Shown here: piece by piece, positions 8,287 through 54,546 of the stretch
Position numbering within the stretch: position 1 is the stretch's first letter
How the letters are laid out: each line of letters opens with the position of its first letter
Source of the DNA: an uncultured Bacilli bacterium
GTDB taxonomy: Bacteria > Bacillota_I > Bacilli_A > RF39 > UBA660
NCBI GenBank assembly: GCA_947588765.1
Contig: CANPZG010000004.1
Span: 1 to 60,523, forward strand
Length of the DNA: 60,523 nucleotides
Direction: 5' to 3'
Position numbers and translations under genes: made by a program
Notes under the pieces: model-generated
Told to the model about the DNA's origin: nothing
The model's input: only the letters and a program-made list of their open reading frames with translations
Databases searched by the model: none

Positions 8287-9042
8287 ATGTTTACAGATAC
8301 ACATTGTCATTTATATCATGAATATTATGAAGATTTAGATGTTGTTAGGGAAAACGCTAATAAAAATGGAATAAAAAATGCTATTAATAATGGGATAGAT
8401 CAAAAAACAAATGAAGAAGTTTTAAATGCTATTAAAGTTAATGATTATATGTATGGAGCTATAGGGATTCATCCCGAATGTGTTCATGATTATAAAGAAG
8501 AAGATTTAAAATTTATTGAAGAACATATTAATGATGAAAAAGTTTTAGCTATAGGAGAAATAGGTTTAGATTATCATTATGAAAAAACATCTAAAAAAGA
8601 ACAAATGGAATTATTTGAACGCCAATTAAAACTTGCTGAAAAATATGATAAACCTGTAGTAATTCATAGTAGAGAAGCAACTCAAGATACCATAGATACT
8701 TTAAAAAAATATAAAGTAAGAGGTGTAATTCATTCTTTCTCTGGCTCTTTAGAAGTAGCTAAAATTTACATAAAAATGGGATTTTTATTAGGTATAAATG
8801 GGGTTATAACTTTTAAAAATTCTAATATTAAAGATGTTTATGCTCAAATTCCTTTGGATAAAATTTTATTAGAAACGGATTCTCCTTATTTAACTCCACA
8901 CCCTTATCGGGGACAAAGAAATGAACCAATGTATATAAAAGATATTGCATTATTTGTTGCTAATTTAAAAAATATTTCACTTGAAGAATTATCTAAAATA
9001 ACTGAAGAAAATATTCATAATTTATTTTTCAAAAATTGCTAG
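8287..9042 (+). CDS. tatD: TatD-family metal-dependent DNase/hydrolase (YabD-like)
   Basis: FTDTHCHL..., GEIGLDYHY, VVIHSREA and LETDSPYLTP are TatD signature motifs. Confidence 0.9.
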   Translation: MFTDTHCHLYHEYYEDLDVVRENANKNGIKNAINNGIDQKTNEEVLNAIKVNDYMYGAIGIHPECVHDYKEEDLKFIEEHINDEKVLAIGEIGLDYHYEKTSKKEQMELFERQLKLAEKYDKPVVIHSREATQDTIDTLKKYKVRGVIHSFSGSLEVAKIYIKMGFLLGINGVITFKNSNIKDVYAQIPLDKILLETDSPYLTPHPYRGQRNEPMYIKDIALFVANLKNISLEELSKITEENIHNLFFKNC

Positions 9043-9108
9043 GTATAAACTAGTTTTAAAATCATAATATTTTTTAGAAAATAATTTTTAAAAATGTCCG
9101 TAGTTACT

Positions 9109-9137
9109 TTGACAAACACACAAAAAAATGCTACAAT
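9109..9137 (+). promoter_or_regulatory. Sigma-A-type promoter for the 3D-domain gene
   Basis: TTGACA (9109-9114), 17-nt spacer, TACAAT (9132-9137), preceded by an extended -10 TG (TGCTACAAT). Confidence 0.6.
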
Positions 9138-9163
9138 ATTATTGTCCTATTAAGGAGGAAAAA

Positions 9164-9700
9164 ATGAAGAAATTAATCAATTATACAATTCGTTTTATAT
9201 TGGTTATTTTAATTATATTTGTAGCTAATACTAGTGCAAATATTTATGAAACTAAAATAGAAAATAATAATGTTAATCAAACTATAAATTTATCAACTAT
9301 GGCTTTAAAAGTTATTGAAGTTAGTAAATCTGATAAATTCTTAGCTAAAGATACTTTTACTGGTGATTTAACCGGTTATGCTTATAATTGTCCTTTATGT
9401 GGTGGTACTTTAGGTTGCAAACCAAGTTATAATATTAAAGATGGTACAACTACTTATCCTGATAATGAATATGGTAATGTTTATATTGTAGCTTCAAGTA
9501 AAAATTTACCATGTGGTTCAATTGTAAGATTTAATAGTGACCGAGTTTCAGATAATGAAGTTTATGCTATTGTCTTAGACCGTGGGGTAAGAGGTAATGC
9601 TTTAGATTTATTAGTTCCTAGTGAAGAATATGCTTCAAGATATATTGGCAGAAGCAGTATAACTTATGATGTATTAAGAAGTGGTTGGGATGAAAATTAA
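9164..9700 (+). CDS. Secreted 3D-domain protein (YabE/Rpf-like cell-wall-binding or lytic transglycosylase fold)
   Basis: AAGGAGG RBS then ATG 9164. N-terminal signal/anchor MKKLINYTIRFILVILIIFVANTSA. C-terminal FTGDLTGYAYNCPLCGG...GSIVRF...YAIVLDRG..GNALDLLV fits the 3D domain pattern. Confidence 0.7.
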   Translation: MKKLINYTIRFILVILIIFVANTSANIYETKIENNNVNQTINLSTMALKVIEVSKSDKFLAKDTFTGDLTGYAYNCPLCGGTLGCKPSYNIKDGTTTYPDNEYGNVYIVASSKNLPCGSIVRFNSDRVSDNEVYAIVLDRGVRGNALDLLVPSEEYASRYIGRSSITYDVLRSGWDEN

Positions 9701-10466
9701 AAAAAGCTTAGGCCAAAACTTTTTGATAAGCAATGAAATAATAAATAAAATTGTTGATTCCATTACTGCTAATTCCAATGATTTAATTATTGAAATTGGT
9801 CCAGGACGAGGAGCTTTAACTAAAAAAATAATTACCAAAAATTCATACTTTTTGGCTTACGAAATTGATAATGATTTAATTCCTAATTTAAAATTATTGG
9901 AAAATGAAAAAATTAAAATAAAACATGAAGACTTTTTAAAAGCTAATATAAAAGAAGATATAAAGGAAATTCCATTTAATAATCTTTTTATTGTGGGAAA
10001 TCTTCCTTATTACATTACAACGCCAATAATTGAAAAAATAATGCAAGAGGATTTAAAGTTAACTAGTTTAACTATTATGGTGCAAAAAGAAGTTGGCGAA
10101 AGATTTATGGCTGAACCAAAATCTAAGGAATATGGATATTTTACATGTCTCTTAAAATATTATTTTGATATTGAGAAATTGACTTTAGTACCCAATACAG
10201 CGTTCTTTCCTAAACCTAAAGTTGATAGTGTAGTCTTAAGATTAACTCCAAGAGCCGAAAAGCCGGATATTGATATTAAAAAATATCAAGAATTTTTAAA
10301 ACAAGTTTTTAGACAAAAAAGAAAGACTTTAAAAAATAATTTAATGAGTGAAAATTGGGAAGAAATAAAAGCTATTTTAGAAAAATATAATTTATCAGAA
10401 TCAGTTAGAGCTGAGGAATTAACGGAAGAAATTTTATTAGATATTTTTAAAACTTTGAAAAAATAA
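9690..10466 (+). CDS. rsmA: 16S rRNA (adenine1518/1519-N6)-dimethyltransferase
   Basis: KKSLGQNFL, EIGPGRGALT and GNLPYYITTPI are canonical KsgA/RsmA motifs. The ORF track opens at 9681. Confidence 0.92.
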   Translation: MKIKKSLGQNFLISNEIINKIVDSITANSNDLIIEIGPGRGALTKKIITKNSYFLAYEIDNDLIPNLKLLENEKIKIKHEDFLKANIKEDIKEIPFNNLFIVGNLPYYITTPIIEKIMQEDLKLTSLTIMVQKEVGERFMAEPKSKEYGYFTCLLKYYFDIEKLTLVPNTAFFPKPKVDSVVLRLTPRAEKPDIDIKKYQEFLKQVFRQKRKTLKNNLMSENWEEIKAILEKYNLSESVRAEELTEEILLDIFKTLKK

Positions 10467-10520
10467 AATAGGAAAGGTTATTGAATTTGTCAATAATCTT
10501 TTTCTTTTGCATATATTTTA

Positions 10521-11309
10521 ATGGTGATTATCTTGGAAATAAAAAAAGGTGATTATGTAACCCGTGATAGTTATAATAACGATATTGTTTTTAAAGTAGT
10601 TAATATTAAAAATGGTATTTTTTATTTAAAAGGTATTGAGGAAAGACTATATGCTGATAGTCCATTGGAAGATTTAAAAATTTATAATGAAGATGAAGAT
10701 AAAGAGAAAGAATTTGATGTTGAAATAAATAGTGATATGGTAGACAGAAACGAATTCTTCTTTTTGCCGCCAAAATTGTGTCAGCTGGACAGTGATGAGC
10801 AATACCTTGAGCGATGTCTAAAGTTTTATAAAAAAAATAACATCTTGGCTATTGGTAAAAAAATAAATGAAAAAAATATGCCAGAACAAGTTATGCAATT
10901 ACTCCAAGAATATAAGCCAGACATCCTAATAATAACTGGACACGATGCCTTTTATCGCAAGAAGGGAAGCATGGATGATTTAAACAATTATAAGAATTCA
11001 GCTTATTTTGTTAAAACCGTACAAGTGGCTAGAAAGTATGAAAAAAGTCATGAAAAATTAGTTATTATTGCTGGTGCTTGTCAAAGTAATTATGAGGAAC
11101 TAATCAAGGCTGGAGCAAATTTTGCATCCAGTCCTAAAAGAGTAAATATTCATACCCTAGATCCAGCTATAATTGCTAGTACCATTGCTTTAACTGAAAG
11201 AAACAAAGAAATTGATATTGTAGAACTATTAGAAAAAACTAAATATGGCAAAGAAGGTATGGGTGGATTACTTTGTAATGGCTTAATGTACGTGGGTTAT
11301 CCCAGATAA
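10521..11309 (+). CDS. yabG: Sporulation-specific protease YabG (peptidase U57)
   Basis: LDSDEQYLERCLKFYKK...YKPDILIITGHDAF...AGACQS parallels B. subtilis YabG. The start codon is uncertain because there is no clear RBS. Confidence 0.8.
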   Translation: MVIILEIKKGDYVTRDSYNNDIVFKVVNIKNGIFYLKGIEERLYADSPLEDLKIYNEDEDKEKEFDVEINSDMVDRNEFFFLPPKLCQLDSDEQYLERCLKFYKKNNILAIGKKINEKNMPEQVMQLLQEYKPDILIITGHDAFYRKKGSMDDLNNYKNSAYFVKTVQVARKYEKSHEKLVIIAGACQSNYEELIKAGANFASSPKRVNIHTLDPAIIASTIALTERNKEIDIVELLEKTKYGKEGMGGLLCNGLMYVGYPR

Positions 11310-12364: not shown

Positions 12365-12392
12365 TTCATATATTATTATAGGAGGACATGCT

Positions 12393-14580: not shown

Positions 14581-16339
14581 ATGGAAGAGCAAAATAAAAG
14601 AAAAAGTATAGTTTATTTAACAATAGGAGTATTAACTCTAGTAGCTTTAATAGCCGGAGCAACATATGCTTATTTTCAAGCTCAAACTGGAAATAATGCT
14701 GTAGCTAATTTAAATACTACAACAGGTAGTACTGATAATTTAACTTTTTCAACTGAAGGAGAAATCGAAATAAATGCCAGTGCAGATAACTTTGGCGAAA
14801 ATATGGGAGACCAAGTATCAAAGGCAAGTGCTAGTGCAACATTAATACCAAATAACACAACAAATAAGGCAAGTGATAAATATAATGTCTATTTAGTAAT
14901 AAATGAAAATACATTTGAATATACCAAAGATACAAATACACCAGAATTAATAATGACAGTAAAGAAAGATGGAGATGAATATACAAAAGTAAAAGAATTA
15001 ACAATAAAAGAAAATATAAATATTCAATATAAACAAGAAGGACAAGAAGACTTAACAAGTGAAACAATAAATGGGTATGATATAACCGAAAAAAGAGGAT
15101 TAATAAAAATAGCTGAAGGAGAAGACATAATAGCAAATGGTGGTCAAGAAATAGATAAATGGGAAATAAAGATAATATTAAGAAATTTAGATAAGGATCA
15201 AAATAAAAATACAGGAAAAACATTTAATGGCAAGATAATAATCCAAAAGGAAGATATTCCAACAAAGATATTAGATGTATGTGAACCAAATGATAATATA
15301 GCCAATTGTTTAATCAAATTACATGATGAAAGTGAATATGGAATAACAAAATTAGTGTATCATGATGAAGAAGAAGACTATAAAGGAGAAACAAACTACG
15401 AATTAGAAGCTGGAGACTTTTCTTATCGCTATAGTGGTTCAAATGAAGAAGTAAATAATTATGTTTGCTTTGGAGGGGATTGTTCTAATAATCCAAATGA
15501 AGAAGAAAAATATTCTAATTTATATAGAATAATAGGAGTGTTTCCAACAACAGCAACCAAAGATTCACCAAATAAAGAGTATCAAATAAAAATAATAAAA
15601 GCAGATTATACAACGGAAGAAGAAACGGGAAGGAGAAGGAGCATATAGCGGAACATATAGTTATGGATCGCCTTATTATCAGGGAGAAACAAGTTACTAT
15701 TCAAAAATAGCAGGATATTATTGGAATAGTACGAATACATCAAATAGTAATAATATGTGGAAAGAAAGTAATTTAAATACAGTAAATTTAAATGACACAT
15801 TCTATAACAAAATGATAGAATCATATAAAGAAATGATAGAAGAGCATGAATGGCAAGTAGGAGGTTTTGGTGCGCATGGAACCGCAAAAACAATATATAA
15901 TTTAGAATTAGGCATAGGTAAATTAACAGAACAAGATGAAAGATGTTATAATCAAGGAAATAATAGTACAAGTGCAAAAAGATTATGCAATGGTGACAAA
16001 GACATAACATATCCAGGATATGTAGGATTAATGTATGTAAGTGATTATATGTATGGAGCAACAAATAAAAGTTGGATAACAACAACAAATAACTATAGTG
16101 CAGTAAAAGACAATAACTGGTTATACATGGGATTAGAAGAATGGTTTATTTCTCGTGGGACCAACACTGGCAACTCTGCGTGGGTTGTTACTAGAGCCGG
16201 TCTTGTGTATGACGACAACTATGCTCTCTACGTGTATGGTGGCAGTCGTGGTGTACGTCCTGCCTTGTATCTGGAGTCTTCGGTAAAAATAATATCTGGG
16301 TCAGGTACAAGTGGTGACCCATACAAGCTTTCCATGTAA
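14581..16339 (+). pseudogene. Secreted-protein paralog A (SipW-like signal + N-module + shared Cys domain), split by a 1-nt frameshift near 15627-15633
   Basis: AAAGGAG RBS then ATG 14581 (MEEQNKRKSIVYLTIGVLTLVALIAGATYAYFQAQT). Frame 1 stops at TAG 15646-15648. Frame 2 is open from 15599 and continues EGEGAYSGTYSYGSPYYQGETSYYSKIAGYYWNS..., collinear with the intact 581-aa paralog at 36139 (GGEGIGAYYGPYGSESTYKGNSTYLGKVTRYYWN). Confidence 0.8.
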
Positions 16340-16452
16340 TAAATAAAAACTATCTTGAGATAATAAGTTAAACAATAAATATAAACTTAGATGTTATATA
16401 AAATAAAACGAATGAGAACTCTAATATAAACTGAATAACTGTTTGATTTATT

Positions 16453-16477
16453 AAAGGCCAAATTTGGTCTTTTTTTA
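16453..16477 (+). terminator. Probable terminator after paralog A
   Basis: AAAGGCCAAA-t-TTTGGTCTTT followed by a T-run (one G-U pair in the stem). Confidence 0.5.
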
Positions 16478-16578: not shown

Positions 16579-19500
16579 ATGTATAAAAAAATATGTTTAT
16601 TTGTATGTATGTTTTTATTATTACCAATATGTGTGCTAGCAAAAGATAAAATGGAATTAAATGTAGATAAAACAGATATAACTGTTGGTGATGAAATAAT
16701 TGTAACTGCTAAAGTTTCAGAAGAATTAAAAAGTTATGCTGTTATAGCTACATTAAAATATGATGAAAATGTTTTTCAAAAGATAGAAGAAACAAATTTT
16801 GATTTAGAGGATGCCGATAGTATTACTTATAATGAATACAATAATAAGTTTGGAATTATTAATAGAAGTGGAAGTATCACGGAGGATGGAGTTCTTTTTA
16901 GTGTTCGTTTAAAGGTAAAAAAAGATGCTAATGTTGGGGATACAAATATTGCTTTAACTAATATATCTTCATCTAATGGAAATGGGAAAATAAGTATTCC
17001 TTCTTGTAAAATTAAAGTTTTAATAACAAGAGATGCTACACCTGGAGAAACAATTCCCGAAAATGAAGAAAATACAATAACTGAAGATACAGAAAATACA
17101 ATTACTACTTTTACGACAATGCCAATTATATATATTTTAGGGAGCATTGCTTTAGTATCTTTAGTCTTAGTTTTAATTTTTATTAGAAAAAATAAATTAA
17201 GTAAAAAGATGATTATTACTTATATTTTATTAGAAATTGCTTTATTTGGGACTATTGTTGCATTAATTATTTCTAATAATAGTAAAAAAGATGTTAATAA
17301 TGATGGTACAAAAGATTATAATGATGCCGAAGAAATTATTAAGTACTTAATTGATATTAAAGGTAATAAAGAAGATAATCAAGATGAAGATAATAATGAA
17401 GAAAATATAACAAATGATAAAAATACTACTAATAAAAATAAGAACAAGAAACCTCATACTAATAATGAAAAACCAAAAGAAGATTTAGATACTAATAATG
17501 ATGGCGAAGTAGATATTGGTGATGTTGGTGATATTGTTGAAGAAGTAACTAAAAATACCAAAGTTGAATTATTCGAAGAAAAATATGACAATATTTATTA
17601 CGTTGAAAAAGGAGAAATAACCCTTAAATTTAAAGCTGATATTACTCCCGCGGATGTATTAATTACCAAAGTAAAAATTGATAATCAATATTATGATGTT
17701 AATTTAAATGAAAATGTATATTCCGTACAAGTAAATAGGACTATTGCGGGTAAATATGATTTTGTAATTACAGAAGTTGTTTTAAATAATGGCAAAAATG
17801 TTAAAACTAAATTAAAATTAACAAGAGAAATTTTAAAAGATGTACCTTATGTTAATAAATTTAATTTAGATGATGCTTCAAAGTCTTTATCTTTCCATTT
17901 AGTAGATGATGATAATGCCTTTATTTCAGGTATGGCAACTATTTATGCTGGTAATGAAATAATTATCAGTAAAGAAATATCAAATTTCACAGAAATAAAT
18001 GATATGCCTTTGGAAGAAGATAAAACTTATTTTGTAGAAATAGTTGGTAATTACGAGCTTGATAGTAATCGAAATGATCAAAATAATGCTTATGTAGATG
18101 AAGTAATGTTTGAACATGAATTTATGCTTGGAGGAGATTATAATTTTGAATTAACTAATTTTGGTATTACTGATGCCTTACAACCGGGGGAAAAACCAAT
18201 AATATCATTTACTAGTTCTAATACAAGAAATGCTAAAATTATGAATGCTACTTTAACAAATGATAATAAAGAAGCAAGTAATTACCAAATATCTAAAATA
18301 GATGGTAACAATTATGAAATTGTAGTGGATGATGCTGATATTACTCCTGGTAAACACACTATTTCTTTAGATGATGTTGGTTTAGATAGTTTAAAAACTT
18401 TTGAAAACAATAAAGATTATGTTACTAATACTTTAACATATACTGTTTTAAAAGAAGCTCCGAAGACAGAAGATATTAAATTAACTAGTAATCTAGAAGA
18501 AAAAGCAATTGATATTGAATTTATGTTAAAAGATCCAAACTTTGCTATTAACTCATTAAATATTGTTGTTGAAAATTCAACTGGTAAAGTAATATCTAAA
18601 GAAGAATTAATTATAGATCAATTTATTACTAATTTACTAGAAAATAAACCAATTAAAACTACAGTTTCATATGGAAATGATACAGATGGTTTATATACGG
18701 TTAAAATTCTTGCTAATTATGATTTATCCGAAAAATATAATTATACTAATCAAAATATAGGAGAAATGGAAATATTAACTCATGGCGATACTATATACAT
18801 TAGCGATATGTTTATAACTAATGATAGAAATGAAAGAACAAATAATTTATATCCAACTAAAAATGCTGGTAATTATCAATTAGCCATAACCTTAGTTACT
18901 AATGGTATTAGAGCTTATACAGCAATTGGTAGTGTAACCATTAATGGTTTAAATTATCCAGCTCAAACTATTGAAGGTTATAAGACAAAAGTTTATGTTA
19001 ATATACCTGATGAAGCTGGAGTTTTAACTTTAAAAGCTAATAGAGTATTACTTATTATTAATAATTACAATTTAAAATTAAATGATTATTATTCCGTTCC
19101 AGAAAAAACAATAAAAGTTGATGTTTTAAAAGATGCTCCTAAAATTGAAAATTTAAGTGTAGAAGAAAACTATGAACAAGATGAAGTAACCTTTGATTTT
19201 GATGTAGTATTAGATGAAAAAGCTAGTACTAGTGATGAAGATTTTAAAGATGGAAAAATTATTTTAAATGGCGAAACGCAACCAATAAATCGGGGTAAAA
19301 ATAGTGTTACTTTTAAAAATGTAGAAAAAGATACCATTTTTGATTTAGATTTTACAGCTAGTTATGATTTGGATTCCGATAATCCAGAAATTAATGCAAT
19401 AACTGGTGACCAAAATGAAAAAATTGATAATAAAATTTTTAGTGTTAAATATGGTTTATTCAATAAAAATACTTATGATAGTATTGCTATAACTGATGGT

Positions 19501-22500
19501 GAAATTTTAAGTCAAAAGAAAAATAAATATTTTGAAAAAAATGAAAGAATGTATTATAGCTTTGATATTATAGGTATTGATGAGGAAAAAGAATTAACAC
19601 CATTTAAGATAGTAGTTAATGATAAAGAATATCTTTTAACTAAAACTTTTAAAGGCTATGCAATTTTATTAGATGGATTTACTAGTTTTGGAGAAAAATC
19701 AATTACAATTACGGATATTATATTTAAAAATGGTCTTAAAGTTAAATTAACGAATCCATATACTGTAAAGATAGAAGTATTAAAAGATAAAATTAGTATT
19801 AATGATTATAATTATAAAATTGATAGCGATAATATTAAAATTACATTTAATAAAAAAGATACTGATAAATCATTAATAGATAATTTAATGGTTAGAATTA
19901 CGGATGATTTTGGCAAAGTCATTTATAATGATAGCTTTAAAAATGAAATTACTTTTGTTAAAGCAAATGATGTTATAAGATATAAAGTCGAAGTAATTGG
20001 TAGTTATGATCGTGATACGGAAATGACTATTAATAGTGAAAATAATTATCAAGATGCCGTATTATTAAGTGAAATTATATCTTTAGATGTAAATAATATT
20101 GAATTAAAAGATATTGAGGATGTTAATTTATACTTAAGAACAACTGTTGATGGTATTGATCAAACTGATAAAATTGATGAAATTTCCATTGTCGAACTAG
20201 AAAATAATTTAGATAATTACTTTGTAGAAATTATAATGACTAATTTACCAACGGTTCGATCTAAAATTGCCAGTGTTAAAAATATTGATAATCATTTATT
20301 CTTAGAGCTAGATTGCAATTACATAACAACGGAAAAAGGTAATGCTAATCAAACAATAAAAATTGATTTTGGAGAAATTAGTGCTAATGGTAAAGCTCTT
20401 AATGAAGAACATCCTGATATCGCTTTTGAAAAATTAATTGAAAAATTACAAAGAAATGAAAATGTGGAATTAACGAAAAATTATGATGCTGCAACTGTAA
20501 GTATTAGTGATGATTACTTTGTTGATGAATACAATGGAACTTTAAATGGTAATGGTTATACAATTAAAAACTTAGATAGACCTTTATTTAATAAAATTAA
20601 TAATGGTACAATTGAAAACTTAAAATTAGAAAATGTAACTATGCCTCGAACTAAAGGTAATGGAGCAATAGCTTTAACAACCAATAAATCAATAATTAGA
20701 AATGTTTTAATAAGTAACTATACTAAAATTAATAATGAAGCAGCAGTAGGTACGTTTGTTGGAACAGCAACCGATTCCACTTTTGAAAATTGTAAAGTAA
20801 GTAATTTCAAAATTAATTCAAATAGTTATACGCAACAATCTATTGGTGGTTTAGTAGGTTATTCTTATGGTTCAACTTTTGAAAACTGTTATGCCTCTGG
20901 TTCAATGAGTGATGGTTGGAATTTCCGTGCTGGTCTAGTTGGTAATGTCGCGAGAGCATCAACATTTATCAATAATTATACCCAAGTTTCATTTAATAAT
21001 CCTTGGGGTGGAGATATAATATGTGGTATTGCTTGTGGTTCCGGTGGTGGAACTTATAAAAATAATATAAGTGTTGGTTCGGGAATTAGGACGCGCATTT
21101 ATGGTTCCGCAAATGAAAGCGATAACAATTATTATTTAGCAAGCGATAATGATGATACTAAAGATCAAAATGGTGTTATTAAGATTACGACGAGTGAAGT
21201 TAATACAGAATTGTTCCGGGATAAAGCCCATTTTGATCCAACTATTTGGAGTTTAAATGATATTTCCATGGAATCTTTACCTAAATTAATCCCGGAAGTT
21301 AAAACTAAATTAGAATCTGAAACTAGTTATGAAAAGGATAAAGAATTATTATATAGTAACTTAATGAAATTAATGCCTTTCTATGATAATGAAAAAATAA
21401 TTAATGTGGGTAAAAATATTGATGTTAATAATTTATTAAATAAAAAAGAAATTCAACATATTTTACCAATTTCTCAAGATGGCAGTTTAGTTACCTATTT
21501 AACATATAATAATGTTAAAAAATTAGATAAAATAAAAATTGTCTTTAGTGATAATTCTAAAACGGAATATGCAGTTATCTTTGATAAAGTATATGATATG
21601 GTAGCATCTTATCGCATAACGGATTTAAATATTGATTATAGTTACAATCATTACTTAATTGATACTAATTCGCAAATAATAAATGATTTAACCAATTATT
21701 TAAGAAATCTTAATTATGCTGATAACTTAGATATTTTAACAAGTAAAGCTGATTCGCGGATTTATAGTGAATTCTATAATGATGTTACAAGTAAAGAATT
21801 ACAAGAATTTGTCTTAAAATATTTAGCTAATAGTAATTATATAAATACGACAAATGATGAAGCAATTAATGATTATCTGGAAGGAAAAATTAAACGAAAT
21901 CAAAAATTAGAAAAAGCCTTATATGTTTATAATTATTTCCGAAGATTCTATGATTTAGATGTTAATGGAATGAAAATATATGACTTTGTAATGTTTAATA
22001 TGCAAGGATTTGATAAAAATCTAACTGCTTCTAAAATAACGGATTTATTCTTAAGTGATGCAACTGGCGCAAATTTTGATACTAATCAAACTAATAATAG
22101 ATATGTAAGTGTTCTTGGAGGTTACACTAAATTAAATTCTATTCCAAAATTTTTAGAATTTATTGTTACTAAATTTAGTGATTATGATATGGCAGAATGG
22201 ACAAGAACGCAATTTAAAGGAATATTAAAAGAAATTACAATTGAAGGACATTCCGAAATTCAATATACTTTATGGGATCATTTAAGTAGTAGAGATTCTA
22301 AATATGGTGAAGTTAGTTTCAATTATGTTTTACCAATTTTAACTCTTCCAGAAACAGCAGCATATATAATTTCAGCTCCAGTGCAATATATAATTGGGGC
22401 ACAAAGAACTTATATGAATAATCCATATAGTGAAACTGATTTAGCTAATTTTGAAGAAAAAATAACATCATATACTGATAGAATGCAAAACTATTACACT

Positions 22501-24042
22501 ACAGCTTATTCTATTTTAGAGGATGCGAATTTATTTAATAATATTCATATCTACCATCTTGATAAAAGATATACCAGAACTTTAGATGGAAGCTCAATAT
22601 TTAATTATCCATATACAACGGAAGAACCATTCCATAAGAATTTTAATGAAGTTACGGGAGCATGGGCTGCGAGTGCTGGAGTTAATGCTGGTGCCAGTGG
22701 TTCTTGGGTTCAATGGCAAGTTGCAGGGGTGTTAGACAGTACTTTAACAACTGATGGTTCTCTTGATGTGGGCCATGTTACCTTTAAAACATTCACTCAT
22801 GAATCAGCTCACAATATTGATGCGAGATTATTCTTAATGGATAATGGTCGAAGATATGATGCTGGTGGTGAAGATTATGCCGATTCATTCTTAATGCAAT
22901 CCTTTGAAAAATTTGGTATTGTTATGAATTTATCTATTAATTTTGATTTAGATAAATTAAATGAAAAAGAACAAGCCGTTGGTTCTAATTTAACACCAGA
23001 AAGAATTAATTCGGAAGCTAAAATTAAAGATTTCTATAATAAAGCTTTCCAAACAATATATATTATGGATTATCTCGAAGCTAAAGCATTCTTACAATTA
23101 GATGATGAAGCTCAAAAAGAATTAGGTATTCAAGTATCATATCCGAATGAAAATGCTCAATTTGCTTATAACATAGTAAAAGATGCTGAGGGAAATGATG
23201 TTCGAGAATATTATGGCCCAACTTATATAGAAGATGAATATGCTCGGTTTAGGGCTTATCAAACAAGTAGATTTACCCAATTAAGTGAAATAGAAAACTT
23301 TGATTATGATAAGTTACAAACTATTGATGATTTAGTGGATAATAAAATTATGCTTTATCCATCAATCTATAAAGTTTCTTCAAGAGCAGATAATTCCTAT
23401 GGTGGAGAAGGATATAATACAGTTCATTGGTATCAACCACATAATGATTATGGTCGTCCTGATTCTTATGCACTAAAGTGGATAAGCTATGAAATGTTAG
23501 GCTATGCTGGATATAAAAAAGGTTTTGTGGAATATGCAAGTAATATTTATTATGAGATTAGAAAAACTTATGATAAATTGGCTACTCCATTTAATGAAGA
23601 TGGAACACCTAATTTAGCTAATGCTAGTTACAAATCTGATGCTATGGCTTTAGAAACAATTACAGAAGGAAAATATACTGATTTTGATAAATACAAGAAA
23701 GATCGTTTCAAAGAAGTAGAAACAAACTTAAGTCGTCTTAATAAAGTTATTAACGCTAAAGAATATGTTCAAGAATTTTATGATGCATTGAAAAAAGATA
23801 GTATTGAGATGAAAGAAGAAGTAGCAAAAGTTATTAATAGGTATGGCTCAGAAGCTAATGCTCTTAATAATTATTGGGGTATAAGAGAATTATGGGCAGC
23901 ACGAAGTTATCCAAATAGTAGTGAAGTTCGTTATAAAATATATAGCACTTTAAAAAATCTAACAAATGATTTTACAACAGATGAAATTTATATGGATACT
24001 TGGCAACAAGATGCTAATGACTTAAGCGTAACAAACAAATAA
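16579..24042 (+). CDS. Giant (2487 aa) surface zinc metalloprotease, M26 (ZmpA/B/C-like) family, with a cohesin-like N-domain, a TM hairpin, dockerin-like Ca-binding repeats and repeated beta modules
   Basis: GGGGGAGG RBS and signal peptide MYKKICLFVCMFLLLPICVLA. Cohesin-like pattern (VGDEIIVTAKVSE..YAVIATLKYDENVF...DGVLFSVRLKVKKDANVGDTNIAL). Two hydrophobic helices (aa ~183-232). DVNNDGTKDYNDAEEIIKYLI and DTNNDGEVDIGDVGDIVEEV. At least 4 modules, each starting [VI]LKD[AV]P. M26 N-domain-like GTLNGNGYTIKNLDRPLF..GTIENLKLENV. HEXXH = HESAH at nt 22798-22812, with GGEDYAD downstream. Confidence 0.8.
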   Translation: MYKKICLFVCMFLLLPICVLAKDKMELNVDKTDITVGDEIIVTAKVSEELKSYAVIATLKYDENVFQKIEETNFDLEDADSITYNEYNNKFGIINRSGSITEDGVLFSVRLKVKKDANVGDTNIALTNISSSNGNGKISIPSCKIKVLITRDATPGETIPENEENTITEDTENTITTFTTMPIIYILGSIALVSLVLVLIFIRKNKLSKKMIITYILLEIALFGTIVALIISNNSKKDVNNDGTKDYNDAEEIIKYLIDIKGNKEDNQDEDNNEENITNDKNTTNKNKNKKPHTNNEKPKEDLDTNNDGEVDIGDVGDIVEEVTKNTKVELFEEKYDNIYYVEKGEITLKFKADITPADVLITKVKIDNQYYDVNLNENVYSVQVNRTIAGKYDFVITEVVLNNGKNVKTKLKLTREILKDVPYVNKFNLDDASKSLSFHLVDDDNAFISGMATIYAGNEIIISKEISNFTEINDMPLEEDKTYFVEIVGNYELDSNRNDQNNAYVDEVMFEHEFMLGGDYNFELTNFGITDALQPGEKPIISFTSSNTRNAKIMNATLTNDNKEASNYQISKIDGNNYEIVVDDADITPGKHTISLDDVGLDSLKTFENNKDYVTNTLTYTVLKEAPKTEDIKLTSNLEEKAIDIEFMLKDPNFAINSLNIVVENSTGKVISKEELIIDQFITNLLENKPIKTTVSYGNDTDGLYTVKILANYDLSEKYNYTNQNIGEMEILTHGDTIYISDMFITNDRNERTNNLYPTKNAGNYQLAITLVTNGIRAYTAIGSVTINGLNYPAQTIEGYKTKVYVNIPDEAGVLTLKANRVLLIINNYNLKLNDYYSVPEKTIKVDVLKDAPKIENLSVEENYEQDEVTFDFDVVLDEKASTSDEDFKDGKIILNGETQPINRGKNSVTFKNVEKDTIFDLDFTASYDLDSDNPEINAITGDQNEKIDNKIFSVKYGLFNKNTYDSIAITDGEILSQKKNKYFEKNERMYYSFDIIGIDEEKELTPFKIVVNDKEYLLTKTFKGYAILLDGFTSFGEKSITITDIIFKNGLKVKLTNPYTVKIEVLKDKISINDYNYKIDSDNIKITFNKKDTDKSLIDNLMVRITDDFGKVIYNDSFKNEITFVKANDVIRYKVEVIGSYDRDTEMTINSENNYQDAVLLSEIISLDVNNIELKDIEDVNLYLRTTVDGIDQTDKIDEISIVELENNLDNYFVEIIMTNLPTVRSKIASVKNIDNHLFLELDCNYITTEKGNANQTIKIDFGEISANGKALNEEHPDIAFEKLIEKLQRNENVELTKNYDAATVSISDDYFVDEYNGTLNGNGYTIKNLDRPLFNKINNGTIENLKLENVTMPRTKGNGAIALTTNKSIIRNVLISNYTKINNEAAVGTFVGTATDSTFENCKVSNFKINSNSYTQQSIGGLVGYSYGSTFENCYASGSMSDGWNFRAGLVGNVARASTFINNYTQVSFNNPWGGDIICGIACGSGGGTYKNNISVGSGIRTRIYGSANESDNNYYLASDNDDTKDQNGVIKITTSEVNTELFRDKAHFDPTIWSLNDISMESLPKLIPEVKTKLESETSYEKDKELLYSNLMKLMPFYDNEKIINVGKNIDVNNLLNKKEIQHILPISQDGSLVTYLTYNNVKKLDKIKIVFSDNSKTEYAVIFDKVYDMVASYRITDLNIDYSYNHYLIDTNSQIINDLTNYLRNLNYADNLDILTSKADSRIYSEFYNDVTSKELQEFVLKYLANSNYINTTNDEAINDYLEGKIKRNQKLEKALYVYNYFRRFYDLDVNGMKIYDFVMFNMQGFDKNLTASKITDLFLSDATGANFDTNQTNNRYVSVLGGYTKLNSIPKFLEFIVTKFSDYDMAEWTRTQFKGILKEITIEGHSEIQYTLWDHLSSRDSKYGEVSFNYVLPILTLPETAAYIISAPVQYIIGAQRTYMNNPYSETDLANFEEKITSYTDRMQNYYTTAYSILEDANLFNNIHIYHLDKRYTRTLDGSSIFNYPYTTEEPFHKNFNEVTGAWAASAGVNAGASGSWVQWQVAGVLDSTLTTDGSLDVGHVTFKTFTHESAHNIDARLFLMDNGRRYDAGGEDYADSFLMQSFEKFGIVMNLSINFDLDKLNEKEQAVGSNLTPERINSEAKIKDFYNKAFQTIYIMDYLEAKAFLQLDDEAQKELGIQVSYPNENAQFAYNIVKDAEGNDVREYYGPTYIEDEYARFRAYQTSRFTQLSEIENFDYDKLQTIDDLVDNKIMLYPSIYKVSSRADNSYGGEGYNTVHWYQPHNDYGRPDSYALKWISYEMLGYAGYKKGFVEYASNIYYEIRKTYDKLATPFNEDGTPNLANASYKSDAMALETITEGKYTDFDKYKKDRFKEVETNLSRLNKVINAKEYVQEFYDALKKDSIEMKEEVAKVINRYGSEANALNNYWGIRELWAARSYPNSSEVRYKIYSTLKNLTNDFTTDEIYMDTWQQDANDLSVTNK

Positions 24043-24433: not shown

Positions 24434-25705
24434 ATGGAAGAACAAAATAAAAGAAAAAGTATAATATATTTAACAATAGGAGTATTAACATTAATAGCTT
24501 TGATAGCGGGTGCAACCTATGCCTATTTTCAAGCCCAAACTGAAAATAATGCTGTAGCTAATTTAAATACTACAACCGGAACAACAGATAATCTAACATT
24601 TTCAACGGATGGTAATATATTAATAAATGCAAGTGCTGATAACTTTGGAGAAAATATGGGAGACCGAGTATCAACAGCAACTGCTAATGCGACATTGATA
24701 CCAAATAATACTACAAATAATGCAAGTGATACCTATAATGTATATCTTGCAATAAAAGAAAATACGTTTGTGTACACAACTGGGGAATCAACTCCAGAAT
24801 TAATATTATCAGTAAAGAAAGATGGAGAATATTATCAAATAAAAAATGAAGATCAAAAAGAAAATATAAGTATTCAATATAAGAAAAAAGGACAAGAAGC
24901 ATTAACAACTGAAACAATAAAAGGATATGATATAACAACAAAAGATGGATTAATAAAAATAGCTGAAGGGGAAACTATAACAGCAAATGAAAAACAAGAA
25001 ATAGATAACTGGGAAATAAAGATAATATTAAAAAATTTGATAAGTGATCAAAATAATAATACAGGAAAAACATTTAATGGAAAGATAATAATCCAAAAAG
25101 AAAAATTAGCTGATAGTGCAGTAGATTTATCAGGGAATGGATACAATGGTACATTTGAAAATGGAGCTGTTGCTATTCCCGATGAAGAAGGAAATATTGG
25201 AGTTTATTTTGATGGTATAGATGACTATGTTGATATTGTAGATTTACCAGATACAATAGATTGGGAAAGTGGATTTAATGTAGAGTTTGAAGCAAAATGG
25301 TTAGCGTTTAATAAATATTCAAGAATATTTGAGGCTTCTAATGGCCCTAATTCAAATAATATATACATAGCTAACACCAATTATAGTAGTAATCTTGTTT
25401 TATCAGTTTATGGAAAAGGAAAAGGGCATGTAATTTCTAGTGGACAATTATTATTAAATGAGAAAAATGTGGTAAAAATGACTTATACTAAAACTGAAAC
25501 CGGTTATAATTTAAATACAAATATTAATGGGGTAGATCAACCAGTTATAACTCATACACCATTATTAACAAATATTACTAGAACTAGTAACTATATGGGT
25601 AAATCAAATTGGAGTATAGATGGCTACTTTAATGGTTATATTTATAATTTAAAAATAACAGATAGTACTGGTAAACCAATTATTTGGTATGATTTTTCAA
25701 AATAA
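24434..25705 (+). CDS. Secreted-protein paralog B: SipW-like signal + shared N-module fused to a LamG/concanavalin-like jelly-roll domain
   Basis: The first ~220 aa are collinear with paralogs A and C (MEEQNKRKSIIYLTIGVLTLIALIAGATYAYFQAQT...KTFNGKIIIQKE). The C-terminus matches the Laminin_G_3 pattern: VYFDGIDDYVDI...FNVEFEAKW...RIFE...NYMGKSNWSIDGYFNGYIYNLKI. Confidence 0.8.
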   Translation: MEEQNKRKSIIYLTIGVLTLIALIAGATYAYFQAQTENNAVANLNTTTGTTDNLTFSTDGNILINASADNFGENMGDRVSTATANATLIPNNTTNNASDTYNVYLAIKENTFVYTTGESTPELILSVKKDGEYYQIKNEDQKENISIQYKKKGQEALTTETIKGYDITTKDGLIKIAEGETITANEKQEIDNWEIKIILKNLISDQNNNTGKTFNGKIIIQKEKLADSAVDLSGNGYNGTFENGAVAIPDEEGNIGVYFDGIDDYVDIVDLPDTIDWESGFNVEFEAKWLAFNKYSRIFEASNGPNSNNIYIANTNYSSNLVLSVYGKGKGHVISSGQLLLNEKNVVKMTYTKTETGYNLNTNINGVDQPVITHTPLLTNITRTSNYMGKSNWSIDGYFNGYIYNLKITDSTGKPIIWYDFSK

Positions 25706-28871: not shown

Positions 28872-28982
28872 TTATTCCTCCAATTATAATTAACTACCAA
28901 AATTATATAATTATTACTTTAAATATAATTGAAGTTATGATAAAATAAAATTGAAGTATAAATTATAATAGAGGTGAATTAT

Positions 28983-30305
28983 ATGAAGAAAATATGGATA
29001 ATTATTACAATTATATTGATTATATGTGTTGGTATTTTTACAATTAATGTATTTAATAGCAAAGATAATAAAGTAATAAAGGATGATTTAGGAAATACAT
29101 TAGCTATAATGATATCAAACGAAAATGGAATAGGATATAAAGATTATGAAAAATCAATATGGCCTAGCAAAGAATATAGATTTAAAGAAGCAAAGTGTTA
29201 TGATATGAATGGTAATTCAGTGGAAAATGTAGTAACATTTAATGAAGAAACAAGAAAAGCAAAAATAACAACAAATCAAACAATAAGTTGTACCTTGTAT
29301 TTTGATAAACCAATAATAACATATTTAAGAAGTAATGATTCAAATGGTATTTTAAGTCAAGAAGAGGTAGGAGGAATGTATAGATACCAAGGAGTTGGAG
29401 TAGAAGAAGCAGCAGATGAAACTCATAAATATGTAGATAACAATTACATTTGTTTTGGAACAAAAGATGAAAGTAAATGTAATTGTGATACTGAGGATAA
29501 TTGTGATAAGTATATGTATCGAATAATAGGAATAACAGCAGATGATGAGTTATATTTAATTAAAATGAAAGTGATTGACGATGGCAATACAAAAACATTT
29601 CAATTAAATTCAAAATATTTAATTGATGATTGTGTTAATAATGCATGTGAATGGGCAAATGTTGAATTATATAAAAGGATAAATGGAGAAGCTTCTCAAA
29701 TAAATATGTCAAATATATTTATAAATAGTGAGAGATATGATTATTTAAAAGATGGAAATCCATGGTATGAAAAAATTGATTATCATAATTGGCTATATGG
29801 TGATATAAATCATATGGCTAACAAAGAATTGAATGGTGAAACAGTTTATGGTGCTTTTAATAATGGTTTAATAGTGTATGAGATAGAAACTGGTTTAAAA
29901 CCAACACAACATTTTGAATATATTAATAATGAATGGAAAATGGTAAAGCATCAATGGAGCCAAGATAAAAAGGTAAAAGCTAAAATAAGATTGATGTATA
30001 TTCATGATGACACTTTAGCATATGATAATATAATAGGTGGTCTTTGGACAGATAATCCAAATAATTGGATAAATTTAAAAAATAGTACGAATACAACGAG
30101 TAGTGAACGCGAATGGTTACTAACAAATTTAGGAAAGGTTAGTGATAGTGCTAACTATTTACATCATTATATGGTATATTCAGAAGGACGCATAGATACA
30201 ACTGAACCGAGTTGGCTCGCACGTGTACGACCTACATTTTATCTAGTAAATACCATTCAATTATCAGGCAAAGGTACAATAGATAATCCATATATCATTA
30301 ATTAA
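28983..30305 (+). CDS. Membrane-anchored paralog D: plain N-terminal TM anchor + unique region + shared Cys domain
   Basis: AGAGGTG RBS 6 nt before ATG 28983. MKKIWIIITIILIICVGIFTI anchor. Shared-domain motifs MYRYQG...NNYICFG...YMYRIIGI ... IRLMYIHDD ... REWLLTN ... VRPTFYL..LSGKGTIDNPYIIN. Confidence 0.8.
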   Translation: MKKIWIIITIILIICVGIFTINVFNSKDNKVIKDDLGNTLAIMISNENGIGYKDYEKSIWPSKEYRFKEAKCYDMNGNSVENVVTFNEETRKAKITTNQTISCTLYFDKPIITYLRSNDSNGILSQEEVGGMYRYQGVGVEEAADETHKYVDNNYICFGTKDESKCNCDTEDNCDKYMYRIIGITADDELYLIKMKVIDDGNTKTFQLNSKYLIDDCVNNACEWANVELYKRINGEASQINMSNIFINSERYDYLKDGNPWYEKIDYHNWLYGDINHMANKELNGETVYGAFNNGLIVYEIETGLKPTQHFEYINNEWKMVKHQWSQDKKVKAKIRLMYIHDDTLAYDNIIGGLWTDNPNNWINLKNSTNTTSSEREWLLTNLGKVSDSANYLHHYMVYSEGRIDTTEPSWLARVRPTFYLVNTIQLSGKGTIDNPYIIN

Positions 30306-53586: not shown

Positions 53587-53613
53587 GTTATTATGTTAAG
53601 GGGGAATGGAAAA

Positions 53614-54546
53614 ATGAAAAACGAAATTATTTTATTTGAAAATCAAGTAGTAAAACTTGAAGTTAATATGCAAGATGAAACAGTATGGCTATCTTTAGAC
53701 CAAATGGCTTTATTATTTGATAGGGACAAATCTGTTATATCAAGACATATTAAAAATGCATTGAAAGAAGAATTGAATGAATCAGTTGTTGCAAAATTTG
53801 CAACAACTGCCAGCGATGGCAAAACTTATCAAGTGGATTATTATAATCTTGATGTGATTATTAGTGTTGGTTATCGAGTAAAATCTCAAAATGGGATAGT
53901 ATTCCGTAAATGGGCTAACAAAATACTTAAAGACTATATGATCAAAGGTTATGCTATTAACCAAAAAAGATTAGATTATTTAGAAAAAACTATTAAATTA
54001 ATTGATATTGCTAATAGAGGTAATGAAAGAATTACTGGTGATGATGCTAAGGAAATATTAGGTGTAATTAATGCCTATACCAAAGCTTTAGATTTGCTAG
54101 ATGATTATGATCATCACACTATAAAGAAAGTTAAAGGTCAAACAAGTGAAAAAGTTGTTACCTATGAAGAATGTATGAATGTTATTGATAAATTAAGATT
54201 TAATAATGAAAGTAGTTTATTTGCCCTTGAAAGAGATGGTAATTTTAAATCTATAATAAACGATATTTATCAAACATTTGGAGGAAATGATGTTTATCCA
54301 TCTATTGAAGAAAAGGCATCTAACTTGCTTTATTTAACAGTAAAAAATCATGCTTTTATTGATGGAAACAAAAGAATTGCGGCCACGATATTTATTTTCT
54401 TTTTACAAGTTAATAACATTTTATATCGTGATAATAATATGGTTATTGATAATAATTCTTTGGCAGCCATAACACTTCTAATCGCGGAGTCTAATCCTAA
54501 AGAAAAAGAAGTAATGATAGATTTAGTAATGAATTTTTTGAAATAA
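53614..54546 (+). CDS. RhuM-family protein with a C-terminal Fic/Doc-type domain
   Basis: AAGGGGGAA RBS before ATG 53614. The RhuM N-domain includes LDQMALLFDRDKSVISRHIKN...YYNLDVIISVGYRVKS..G..FRKWA. The C-terminal Doc-like motif HAFIDGNKR (nt 54349-54375) has GNKR in place of GNGR. Confidence 0.8.
   Translation: MKNEIILFENQVVKLEVNMQDETVWLSLDQMALLFDRDKSVISRHIKNALKEELNESVVAKFATTASDGKTYQVDYYNLDVIISVGYRVKSQNGIVFRKWANKILKDYMIKGYAINQKRLDYLEKTIKLIDIANRGNERITGDDAKEILGVINAYTKALDLLDDYDHHTIKKVKGQTSEKVVTYEECMNVIDKLRFNNESSLFALERDGNFKSIINDIYQTFGGNDVYPSIEEKASNLLYLTVKNHAFIDGNKRIAATIFIFFLQVNNILYRDNNMVIDNNSLAAITLLIAESNPKEKEVMIDLVMNFLK

What the first reader, a model, noticed from the sequence alone, without database searches (positions are those of the whole stretch)
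16150..16330. The last ~180 nt of paralog A are about 49% GC, far above the surrounding sequence
My hand counts give 31/60, 30/60 and 27/60 G+C for 16141-16200, 16201-16260 and 16261-16320. Most other stretches I sampled were around 25-30%. Codons that are rare elsewhere in the window appear here (CTG, GCC, GGC, CGT, GTC, CTC, TAC). The equivalent 3' segments of paralog C (37681-37860, ~38%) and paralog D (30181-30240, ~48%) are also elevated, but over shorter spans. This part encodes the conserved ..[VI]RPxxYL..GSGT..DPY end of the shared domain. The pattern suggests a recent import or gene conversion of this 3' module from a higher-GC donor. Alternatively, a nucleotide-level constraint such as a recombination target or RNA structure may overlap the coding sequence.
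Basis: seen in the sequence. Interest (0 to 1): 0.65.

Follow-up and report, generated by a model that had tools for sequence, protein, structure and literature searches.

The report
Retroelement-written variable region, template not found
The GC-rich tail of this gene is very probably the hypervariable region of a surface-protein family that diversity-generating retroelements (DGRs) rewrite in gut bacteria; this is a known mechanism, but here the gene is broken and no template or reverse transcriptase lies within the 60 kb.

Summary
Positions 16150-16330 are 49.2% GC against a window mean of 27.9%. This is the highest GC peak at the 120, 180 and 240 nt scales, and the strongest codon-usage anomaly among 13,290 in-frame windows (z = 7.3). 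It is mainly an adenine-depletion island: A is 22% here against 47% in the rest of the gene.

More than 80 homologous genes from other 25-30% GC gut genomes carry the same island at the same codons. Nine of them have a template repeat (TR) 270-400 nt downstream whose mismatches fall almost only at template adenines (15/15, 16/16, 17/17, 23/23). In those loci the TR is followed by MutS-like, Avd-like and reverse-transcriptase genes. About 25 further copies fit such a template located elsewhere.

The family is therefore a DGR target, and the island corresponds to the variable region plus a downstream DNA hairpin. The high GC comes from A-free scaffold codons and from A-to-N mutagenesis, not from a GC-rich donor organism.

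In this window no template or RT was found, the gene is frameshifted, and the region is identical in five near-clonal assemblies. It is either a remote target or a recently orphaned one. This is a new member of a known kind and of moderate interest.

The parts
14581..15648 (+). N-terminal reading frame of paralog A (355 aa), with a signal-anchor helix ..IGVLTLVALIAGATYAYFQ. It ends at a premature stop because of a frameshift.
   Evidence: The same N-terminus is present in the intact paralog C and in L164, a relative whose gene has a template repeat beside it.
15620..15650 (+). Frameshift site. There is a 5-nt gap relative to paralog C (GAAGAAAC-----GGGAAGGA), after which the frame changes.
   Evidence: It is present in all five assemblies. 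The open frame upstream of the stop is only 246 codons. Of 54 island-bearing genes, including this one, 48 have an open frame of at least 400 codons.
15755..16339 (+). C-terminal reading frame of paralog A (194 aa from the first ATG). It is a DUF6273-like domain fragment that carries the island.
16148..16262 (+). Variable-region equivalent, from ATTTCTCGT (I-S-R) to GGTGTACGTCCTG (G-V-R-P). It is 53% GC and 17-18% A, with 5-6% A at third codon positions. It is five codons longer than the 102-nt variable regions of the closest relatives with known templates.
   Evidence: The limits come from the TR/VR homology limits in relatives (ATTTCCCG ... GGGGTGCGCCCAG).
16250..16262 (+). GC-rich 3' end of the variable-region equivalent (GGTGTACGTCCTG). 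This is where TR/VR homology ends in relatives, so it is the likely site where cDNA transfer is primed (IMH-like).
   Evidence: Inferred by position from L164. It cannot be defined without the cognate template.
16263..16336 (+). Segment after the variable region (ALYLESSVKIISGSGTSGDPYKLSM). It lies outside the TR homology of relatives but is still 44% GC against 33% expected.
   Evidence: z = 4.8. The same holds in relatives.
16297..16321 (.). Inverted repeat TGGGTCA / TGACCCA (7 bp stem, 11 nt loop) over the codons SGSGTSGDP. It is a candidate DNA hairpin or cruciform of the DGR target site.
   Evidence: centroid structure, -5.5 kcal/mol. Hairpins lie at the same place in targets with known templates, with different stem sequences. 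P = 0.037 against synonymous recoding; absent in paralogs C and D.
16453..16472 (+). Terminator-like hairpin followed by a T run, in the AT-rich spacer after the gene. No TR, Avd or RT follows. The next gene is an M26 peptidase (16579..24042).

Best explanation
The island is the variable region (VR) of a DGR target gene, together with the target-recognition sequence just downstream of it.

How the family works (shown in relatives). A signal-anchored surface protein ends in a DUF6273-like, probably C-type-lectin-like, domain. A roughly 100-nt template repeat (TR) is transcribed. A DGR reverse transcriptase, with Avd-like and MutS-like accessory proteins, copies it into cDNA while misincorporating opposite template adenines. 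The cDNA then replaces the VR.

Why the GC is high (shown in relatives). Any adenine in the template is mutable, so fixed scaffold residues are written with A-free codons (GCG, GTG, GGC, CGY, CCR, TTC), and variable residues are written as AAY. The template is therefore already 40-47% GC. Mutagenesis then turns about half of its adenines into G, T or C, which brings VRs to 47-59% GC and 12-22% A. In a 28% GC genome this appears as a sharp GC and A-depletion island that ends at the stop codon. A GC-rich hairpin downstream of the VR adds to it.

What is inferred for the window copy. Paralog A was written by this process, and recently enough that AT-biased decay has not erased it.

Its present state is open. 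No TR or RT lies in the 60 kb, the gene is frameshifted, and its VR is the same in five assemblies. I put about 0.45 on a remote target of a cassette elsewhere in the genome. I put about 0.40 on an orphan whose cassette is lost or which is no longer used.
For: 1. Family-wide island. In 95 homologous gene ends from 83 loci, the last 198 nt average 44.5% GC and 23.8% A, against 31.9% GC and 42.7% A in the 300 nt upstream (examples).

2. Templates in relatives. Nine loci have a 95-103 nt repeat 270-400 nt downstream of the VR. Mismatches fall at template A in 15/15, 16/16, 17/17, 23/23, 22/23 (three loci), 20/24 and 16/20 cases. Pooled, 590 mismatches are at A sites and about 110 are not. About 90 of those 110 are the 3 nt before the homology starts. 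By codon position the mismatches are 347/284/69.

3. Cassette. The order TR, MutS_I-like ORF, bAvd-like ORF, RVT_1 reverse transcriptase (E = 7.7e-19, YMDD motif) is seen in L164, L179 and L184, and in truncated form in five more loci. An RT is found only where a TR lies beside the gene.

4. Remote targets. About 25 VRs with no template nearby fit a template seen in another locus with at most 8% non-A mismatches. Several of these have 10 kb of flank on both sides.

5. Window copy. It has the same scaffold, ISR-x7-A[W/F]xVxxxGxV...GVRP. Its VR values (GC 0.53, A 0.17) lie inside the range of VRs with a matching template (0.56 +/- 0.04 and 0.16 +/- 0.03). Its codon-usage anomaly is the largest in the window and has the limits 16139-16336. 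The A deficit is spread over C, G and T.

6. Hairpin. It lies at the same codons as in targets with known templates. This agrees with the hairpin/cruciform requirement in PMC3240598.

7. Literature. DUF6273 is described as a C-type-lectin-like DGR target domain with the VR at its C-terminal end (PMC10743442, PMC11792537). Remote targets and the MutS-like (MSL) accessory gene are described in PMC5758913.
Against: - No TR-like sequence exists anywhere in the 60.5 kb window on either strand. There is no RT or Avd either.
- None was found in IMG/VR with A-tolerant patterns or in GenBank phages.
- No TR-like or variant-VR contig at 80% identity or more was found in the four rabbit-gut runs that hold the organism. 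Depth there is only about 5x, and the cognate template may be less than 80% identical.
- The VR is identical in five assemblies, so no diversification is seen. These are near-clonal, at least 99.98% identical once a divergent contig end is set aside.
- The gene is frameshifted.
- Third-position GC of the VR (0.43) is below the range of VRs with a matching template (0.53-0.75), and third-position A is slightly above it (0.05 against at most 0.03). This suggests either a template with more T-ending codons or the start of decay.
- The window protein itself has no direct Pfam match, and both structure predictions failed (pLDDT 46-49).
Confidence: 0.85

Rival explanations
1. Horizontal import or gene conversion of the 3' module from a higher-GC foreign organism.
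For: There is an abrupt compositional boundary at about 16139. Codon usage is foreign to the genome (z = 7.2-7.3). Nucleotide identity to paralog C collapses inside the island, while the flanks are 72-88% identical.
Against: - The same island with the same limits is present in more than 80 homologues in many low-GC genomes.
- The deviation is adenine-specific and spread over C, G and T.
- Differences between relatives fall at codon positions 1-2 of NNY codons, not at third positions.
- The demonstrable donors are local templates of 40-47% GC.
- No similar DNA was found in the phage collections.
Confidence: 0.03
2. Selection acting on the coding sequence itself, with no retroelement involved. 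This could be an amino-acid composition effect, a translational-speed signal, or a structured RNA or regulatory element overlapping the 3' end.
For: About half of the GC excess is due to amino-acid composition (37% expected against about 29-30% upstream). A local hairpin is predicted.
Against: - The synonymous-codon excess remains at z = 7.2 after conditioning on the peptide.
- The RNA fold of 16130-16345 is no better than shuffles (z = -0.24).
- There is no Rfam match.
- Paralogs C and D have the same domain end but genome-like codons.
- This reading does not explain the A-only TR/VR mismatches in relatives.
Confidence: 0.04
3. Assembly artefact: a chimeric join of reads from a higher-GC organism into this contig.
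For: The data are metagenomic at about 5x depth. Logan contigs of two of the four runs break across 16152-16284.
Against: - Five independent assemblies give the identical sequence across the island and both flanks.
- Contigs of two runs cross it without a difference.
- The reading frame and the family scaffold run uninterrupted through both boundaries.
Confidence: 0.01

Closest known systems
DGR variable proteins with a DUF6273 (C-type-lectin-like) domain, from Faecalibacterium prophages and 'tentaclins' (PMC11792537, PMC10743442)
   Same: Half of the family members tested match DUF6273 (50/104). The VR maps to the C-terminal end of that domain. The TR uses AAY codons and the mismatches are at adenines.
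   Different: - These are chromosomal, signal-anchored proteins of 420-540 aa in low-GC gut Firmicutes, not phage tail or receptor-binding proteins.
- No relative was found in GenBank phages, and only two in IMG/VR.
- The window copy itself does not reach any Pfam threshold.
MutS-like (MSL) DGR architecture, 'Architecture D' of Wu et al. 2018 (PMC5758913); the Legionella DGR is an example
   Same: The relatives' cassettes carry a small MutS_I-like ORF together with an Avd-like ORF and the RT, all on one strand.
   Different: The order here is target, TR, MSL, avd, RT. Whether these RTs belong to the same clade was not tested. None of this is present in the window.
Treponema denticola DGR with several remote targets (PMC4891356, PMC5758913)
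   Same: One template appears to serve several dispersed paralogous target genes. Many VRs have no template within 10 kb.
   Different: The accessory genes differ (HRDC in Treponema) and the target domain family differs. Remote targeting here is inferred from VRs that fit templates seen in other samples, not from a closed genome.
Bordetella phage BPP-1 mtd target site: IMH plus a hairpin/cruciform (PMC3240598)
   Same: The VR has a GC-rich 3' end, and an inverted repeat lies downstream of where TR/VR homology ends. Stem sequences vary between lineages while the position is kept.
   Different: The hairpin starts about 35 nt after the homology end, against 4-34 nt reported. It lies inside the coding sequence. 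Its loops are 3 or 11 nt rather than the 4-nt GRNA loop. Its function is untested.
N-terminal DUF6273 domain of the Thomasclavelia ramosa IgA protease ThomasA (PMC12402451). PDB entry 9qa6 is titled 'IgA protease'; that it is this protein is my inference.
   Same: It is the only PDB sequence match of the family profile (E = 0.0019, chain residues 196-272).
   Different: The match is weak, and no DGR is known to act on it. Whether it says anything about the M26 peptidase gene next to paralog A is unknown.

Membership tests
DGR target (variable region) | A template repeat elsewhere that matches the variable region, with differences confined to template adenines | tested here: inconclusive
   For the window copy, none was found in the 60.5 kb, in IMG/VR or in the sample's contigs at 80% identity or more. 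The rest of the genome is not available. For homologues the feature is met in nine loci (15/15 to 23/23 mismatches at A), and about 25 more VRs fit templates in other loci.
DGR target (variable region) | A DGR-type reverse transcriptase, usually with Avd, in the same genome | tested here: inconclusive
   The window has no RT or Avd (tblastn E > 0.5). In relatives an RVT_1 RT (E = 7.7e-19) is found next to every cis template that is followed by enough sequence. The bAvd-like hit (E = 1.8e-4) is below Pfam's cut-off. The rabbit sample holds many related RT, Avd and TR contigs, but none can be tied to this organism.
DGR target (variable region) | Compositional footprint: adenine depletion, variable codons of NNY type, variation at codon positions 1-2 | tested here: met
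   A is 17-22% against 47% in the rest of the gene. Third-position A is 5-6% against 40% genome-wide. Third positions in the VR core are 80% C or T. In relatives the mismatches fall 347/284/69 by codon position.
DGR target (variable region) | Target-site elements: GC-rich 3' end of the VR and a downstream hairpin or cruciform | tested here: met
   GGTGTACGTCCTG lies at the position of the homology end in relatives. The inverted repeat is at 16297-16303 / 16315-16321. P = 0.037 against synonymous recoding, and 35% of island-bearing relatives reach p < 0.05. Function was not tested.
DGR target (variable region) | Ongoing diversification, meaning the variable region differs between or within populations | tested here: not met
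   The VR is identical in five assemblies, and only one form appears in the Logan contigs. The test is weak, because the assemblies are near-clonal, depth is about 5x and no raw reads were available. Between more distant relatives the VR is hypervariable.
DUF6273 / C-type-lectin-fold variable proteins | Sequence membership in Pfam PF19789 | tested here: inconclusive
   The window proteins A, C and D have no Pfam hit at E <= 0.1. Of 104 aligned family members, 50 match DUF6273 (best E = 7.8e-8).
DUF6273 / C-type-lectin-fold variable proteins | C-type-lectin-like fold with the variable region on its surface | tested here: inconclusive
   Two AlphaFold2 runs on the 194-aa fragment gave pLDDT 46 and 49. 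No fold search was run on such models. The fold assignment rests on the literature for DUF6273 (PMC10743442).

The most novel reading that the evidence does not exclude
A single chromosomal DGR of the MutS-like architecture maintains a dispersed array of paralogous surface-protein genes in low-GC gut Firmicutes. Copies that lose contact with it, like this frameshifted paralog A, persist as 'frozen' variable regions. Such regions would be recognisable from composition alone. GC and A-depletion islands at gene 3' ends could then serve as a template-free detector of present and past DGR targets. They could also act as a clock for how long ago a target was last rewritten, with A appearing recent and C and D appearing old.
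Probability: 0.3. Interest if true: 0.5.

Novelty: new member of a known kind. Interest (0 to 1): 0.35.

Why it matters
- It explains an odd compositional island by a known mechanism. It also shows that in very AT-rich genomes a DGR variable region can be spotted from base composition alone, even when the template and reverse transcriptase are on another contig, as is usual in metagenomes.
- It adds an unnamed protein family of at least 2,031 database proteins (E <= 1e-5) from gut Firmicutes. These are signal-anchored proteins with a DUF6273-like C-terminus, often in several copies per genome. They join the set of cellular, non-phage DGR targets and point to hypervariable surface ligand-binding proteins in these organisms.
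- The broken, invariant copy in this window is a candidate example of a target that has dropped out of the system.

Tried and rejected
1. Genome-contig scan. As a result the organism's name and a possible species genome were not obtained.
2. IMG/VR pattern scans. The same idea with third codon positions fixed found nothing.
3. Search for the template inside the window, L005, L006 and L127. None was found.
4. Laying the rabbit-gut Logan contigs on the island. No template or variant VR appeared at 80% identity or more. Contig breaks over the VR in two runs cannot be told apart from low depth.
5. Laying the same contigs on a relative's cassette. The sample holds many related RT, Avd and TR pieces. 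One template-like piece reads AAT GCG TGG AAT GTC AAC AAT AAC GGA AAT and shares the A-W scaffold of the window's VR. It has 3 non-A mismatches in 30 nt and a higher depth, so it is not the cognate template.
6. Structure prediction, twice, with 20 and 104 aligned sequences. Both gave low confidence, probably because the 194-aa frame is only part of the domain. No fold search was run.
7. PDB profile searches. Only one weak hit was found.
8. Rfam and a whole-island RNA fold. Both were negative.
9. GenBank phage searches by DNA and by protein. There was no match.
10. Using strain divergence to test VR stability. The apparent 0.4% divergence of L003 is confined to one contig end, so the five assemblies are effectively one strain and the test is weak.

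Full report
**1. The observation**

The window averages 27.9% GC. With 180-nt windows the sd is 5.4%. This segment is the maximum of the whole window at 120, 180 and 240 nt.

The only comparable 180-nt peaks lie in rplD, rplB and the catalytic region of an M26 peptidase gene. I conditioned each in-frame 66-codon window on its own peptide and on the window's codon usage. Those peaks then disappear (z 0.8-2.3). The island becomes the top of 13,290 windows, with limits 16139-16336: observed 48.0%, expected 37.0%, z = 7.3. About half of the excess is therefore amino-acid composition and half is synonymous codon choice.

The rare-codon list is correct except for GTC, which is not an in-frame codon here.

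The main feature is an adenine deficit. A is 21.9% in 16139-16339 against 46.9% in the rest of the gene. The missing A is shared among C (+10 points), G (+9) and T (+6). Third-position A is 6% in the core against 40% in the window's genes.

**2. The gene**

'Paralog A' consists of two reading frames, 14581..15648 and 15755..16339. A frameshift separates them (a 5-nt gap relative to the intact paralog C, 36139..37884). The frameshift and an identical 194-aa product occur in four other ENA assemblies. The sequencing runs that hold the window are labelled rabbit gut metagenome.

Those assemblies are effectively one strain. The only dense differences lie at one contig end.

The neighbouring genes (spoVG, spoVT, yabP, yabG, clpP, glycolysis, ribosomal proteins) indicate a spore-forming Firmicute of about 28% GC. 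I could not name it, because my only scan of the genome collection was wasted on a badly designed pattern.

**3. Relatives show what the island is**

The closest database relative outside this strain is only 38% identical. A group of hits is nearly identical to one another except in one stretch, EWTISR-x-[AS]-x5-[AV]F-x-V-xxx-G-x-V-...-GVRP. That stretch is rich in N, Y, S, D and F.

A metagenome scan returned 80 loci, mostly human gut and 25-30% GC. Over 95 gene ends, the last 198 nt average 44.5% GC and 23.8% A. The 300 nt upstream average 31.9% GC and 42.7% A. A minority of paralogous copies have no island (about 25% GC).

Nine loci carry a 95-103 nt repeat of the hypervariable stretch 270-400 nt downstream of it. 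Mismatches at positions where the downstream copy has A are 15/15, 16/16, 17/17, 23/23, 22/23 (three loci), 20/24 and 16/20.

In L164 the layout is as follows:
- target gene 8936..10525, with the same N-terminal anchor as the window's paralogs;
- VR 10352-10451;
- TR 10753-10852;
- a MutS_I-like ORF;
- a bAvd-like ORF (E = 1.8e-4, below Pfam's cut-off);
- an RVT_1 reverse transcriptase with YMDD (E = 7.7e-19).

The same order recurs in L179 and L184, and in truncated form in five more loci. An RT is present only where a TR lies beside the gene. This is a diversity-generating retroelement of the MutS-like-accessory architecture described by Wu et al. (PMC5758913).

**4. Why the variable region is GC-rich**

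The templates read, in the target's frame, ISR-N-[AS]-D-N-x-N-N-A-F-N-V-N-N-x-G-N-V-N-N-N-N-[AV]-N-N-N-N-G-V-R-P. Variable residues are AAC or AAT. Fixed residues use A-free codons (GCG, GTG, GGC, CGC, CCG, TTC). The templates are 33-36% A and 40-47% GC, which is already far above their genomes.

Their VRs are 12-22% A and 47-59% GC. A>G, A>T and A>C changes number 246, 220 and 124, and mismatches by codon position are 347/284/69.

The island therefore has two causes: adenine avoidance at scaffold positions of the template, and adenine mutagenesis at the rest. The window's VR equivalent (16148-16262) has GC 0.53 and A 0.17. That is inside the range of VRs with a matching template (0.56 +/- 0.04 and 0.16 +/- 0.03). 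Its third-position GC (0.43) is below their range (0.53-0.75).

**5. The part after the variable region**

TR/VR homology ends at GGGGTGCGCCCAG (the G-V-R-P codons), yet the remaining 75 nt or so of the gene are also GC-rich. In the window they are 44% against 33% expected.

A DNA hairpin is predicted over the SGSG..DP codons in the window (TGGGTCA 16297-16303 / TGACCCA 16315-16321). Hairpins are predicted at the same place in targets with known templates, with different stems: CAGGGTCA/TGACCCTG, ATCGGG/CCCGAT and AGCGGC/GCCGCT. The window's paralogs C and D lack it.

Against synonymous recoding with GC-matched codon usage, 35% of island-bearing genes reach p < 0.05, and the window copy gives p = 0.037. 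This fits the hairpin/cruciform requirement for DGR target sites, where stem structure matters rather than stem sequence (PMC3240598). The loops here differ from the phage consensus. I regard this element as probable, not shown.

**6. Status of the window copy**

No TR-like sequence is present in the window on either strand, under identity or A-tolerant scoring. There is no RT or Avd. A terminator-like hairpin and an AT-rich spacer follow the gene.

This is not unusual for the family. Only nine island-bearing genes have a template beside them. About 25 others fit a template seen in another locus with at most 8% non-A mismatches, and several of those have 10 kb of flank on both sides. Remote targets are known for cellular DGRs (PMC5758913).

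Several observations weigh against present activity:
- The frameshift. Of 54 island-bearing genes, including this one, 48 have open frames of at least 400 codons. This copy has the shortest, at 246.
- The identical VR in five assemblies.
- The absence of a TR-like or variant contig in the sample.
- The lower third-position GC.

Each of these is weak on its own, given near-clonal strains, about 5x depth and an 80% identity floor. The retained hairpin and the undecayed A deficit argue that the last rewriting was recent.

The rabbit sample contains many related RT, Avd and TR contigs. One template-like piece has the same A-W scaffold as the window's VR, but it cannot be assigned to this organism.

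**7. Rival explanations**

- A foreign GC-rich donor does not explain a family-wide, adenine-specific island with position-1/2 variation and local templates.
- A structured RNA is not supported (z = -0.24, no Rfam family).
- An assembly chimera is excluded by five concordant assemblies.

**8. Comparison with known systems**

DUF6273 is reported as a C-type-lectin-like DGR target domain with the VR at its C-terminal end (PMC10743442, PMC11792537). Of 104 family members, 50 match it. The window proteins do not reach any threshold themselves, and my two structure predictions failed. The fold is therefore taken from the literature, not tested here.

The family profile weakly matches a PDB chain titled 'IgA protease' (9qa6, E = 0.0019). 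The EMBO J paper on the Thomasclavelia ramosa IgA protease assigns a DUF6273 N-terminal domain to that enzyme (PMC12402451). Equating the chain with that protein is my inference.

**9. Verdict**

The feature is real. It is the footprint of a known mechanism in a previously unnamed target family of at least 2,031 proteins. I class it as a new member of a known kind. The open question is whether this particular copy is a remote target or an orphan.

Noticed in passing
window 15620-15650: Paralog A is split by a frameshift (a 5-nt gap relative to paralog C). The frameshift is conserved in all five assemblies. The C-terminal frame stays open for 246 codons and overlaps the end of the N-terminal frame.
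   Followed up: partly
window 16821-16836 (M26 peptidase gene 16579..24042) vs L001: Assembly L001 lacks 16 nt (TATTACTTATAATGAA) near the 5' end of the M26 IgA-protease-like gene. The gene is then called as 105 aa plus 2307 aa instead of 2487 aa. This could be an on/off polymorphism of that gene.
   Followed up: no
window 10776-10973 (inside yabG-like Peptidase_U57 gene 10521..11309): This is the second-largest codon-usage GC excess in the window. Observed GC is 34.3% against 24.7% expected from the peptide (z = 6.8). It is unexplained.
   Followed up: no
window 24434..25705, 28974..30305, 36139..37884, 55806..59324, 60446-60523: The window holds a local family of surface-protein genes. B shares A's N-terminal half but ends in a Laminin_G_3-like domain. 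C and D end in the same domain type as A, without the DGR codon footprint. E starts like a prepilin (KGFVFIETII) and carries the domain internally, followed by FN3 repeats. Its first 78 nt recur at 96% identity at the very end of the window.
   Followed up: partly
L164 11038-11418; also L179, L184, L195, L191, L182, L132, L199: A small MutS domain-I-like ORF lies between the TR and the Avd-like gene in every cassette of this DGR group. It corresponds to the 'MSL' accessory gene of Wu et al. 2018, whose role is unknown.
   Followed up: partly
L164 10526-10700: A GC-rich, apparently structured spacer of about 170 nt lies between the target's stop codon and the TR. Its composition is unlike the surrounding AT-rich DNA. 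It may be part of the DGR RNA. It is absent downstream of the window's gene.
   Followed up: no
runs X1-X4 laid on L164 10740-12830: The rabbit-gut sample contains many distinct contigs 80-93% identical to parts of this RT, Avd and TR. Depth reaches about 120 over the RT motif region 12345-12464. DGRs of this group are therefore abundant and diverse in that community.
   Followed up: partly
window 14947, 14994, 15028 vs L001; L003 1-300 vs window 13134-13433: Three SNPs cluster within 81 nt of A's N-terminal half in one assembly. This may be conversion between paralogs or a mis-assembly. One assembly has a strongly divergent contig end next to clpP.
   Followed up: no
L127 10496-10560 (IMG/VR contig IMGVR_UViG_3300045988_181655): One of only two viral-contig relatives has a VR-like island followed at once by a very GC-rich inverted-repeat region. 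The contig ends about 100 nt after the gene. This is consistent with assemblies breaking at a TR/VR repeat.
   Followed up: no
window 53593..54546: An ORF with RhuM-family and Fic/DOC domains lies between the ribosomal-protein cluster and the pilin-like gene E.
   Followed up: no
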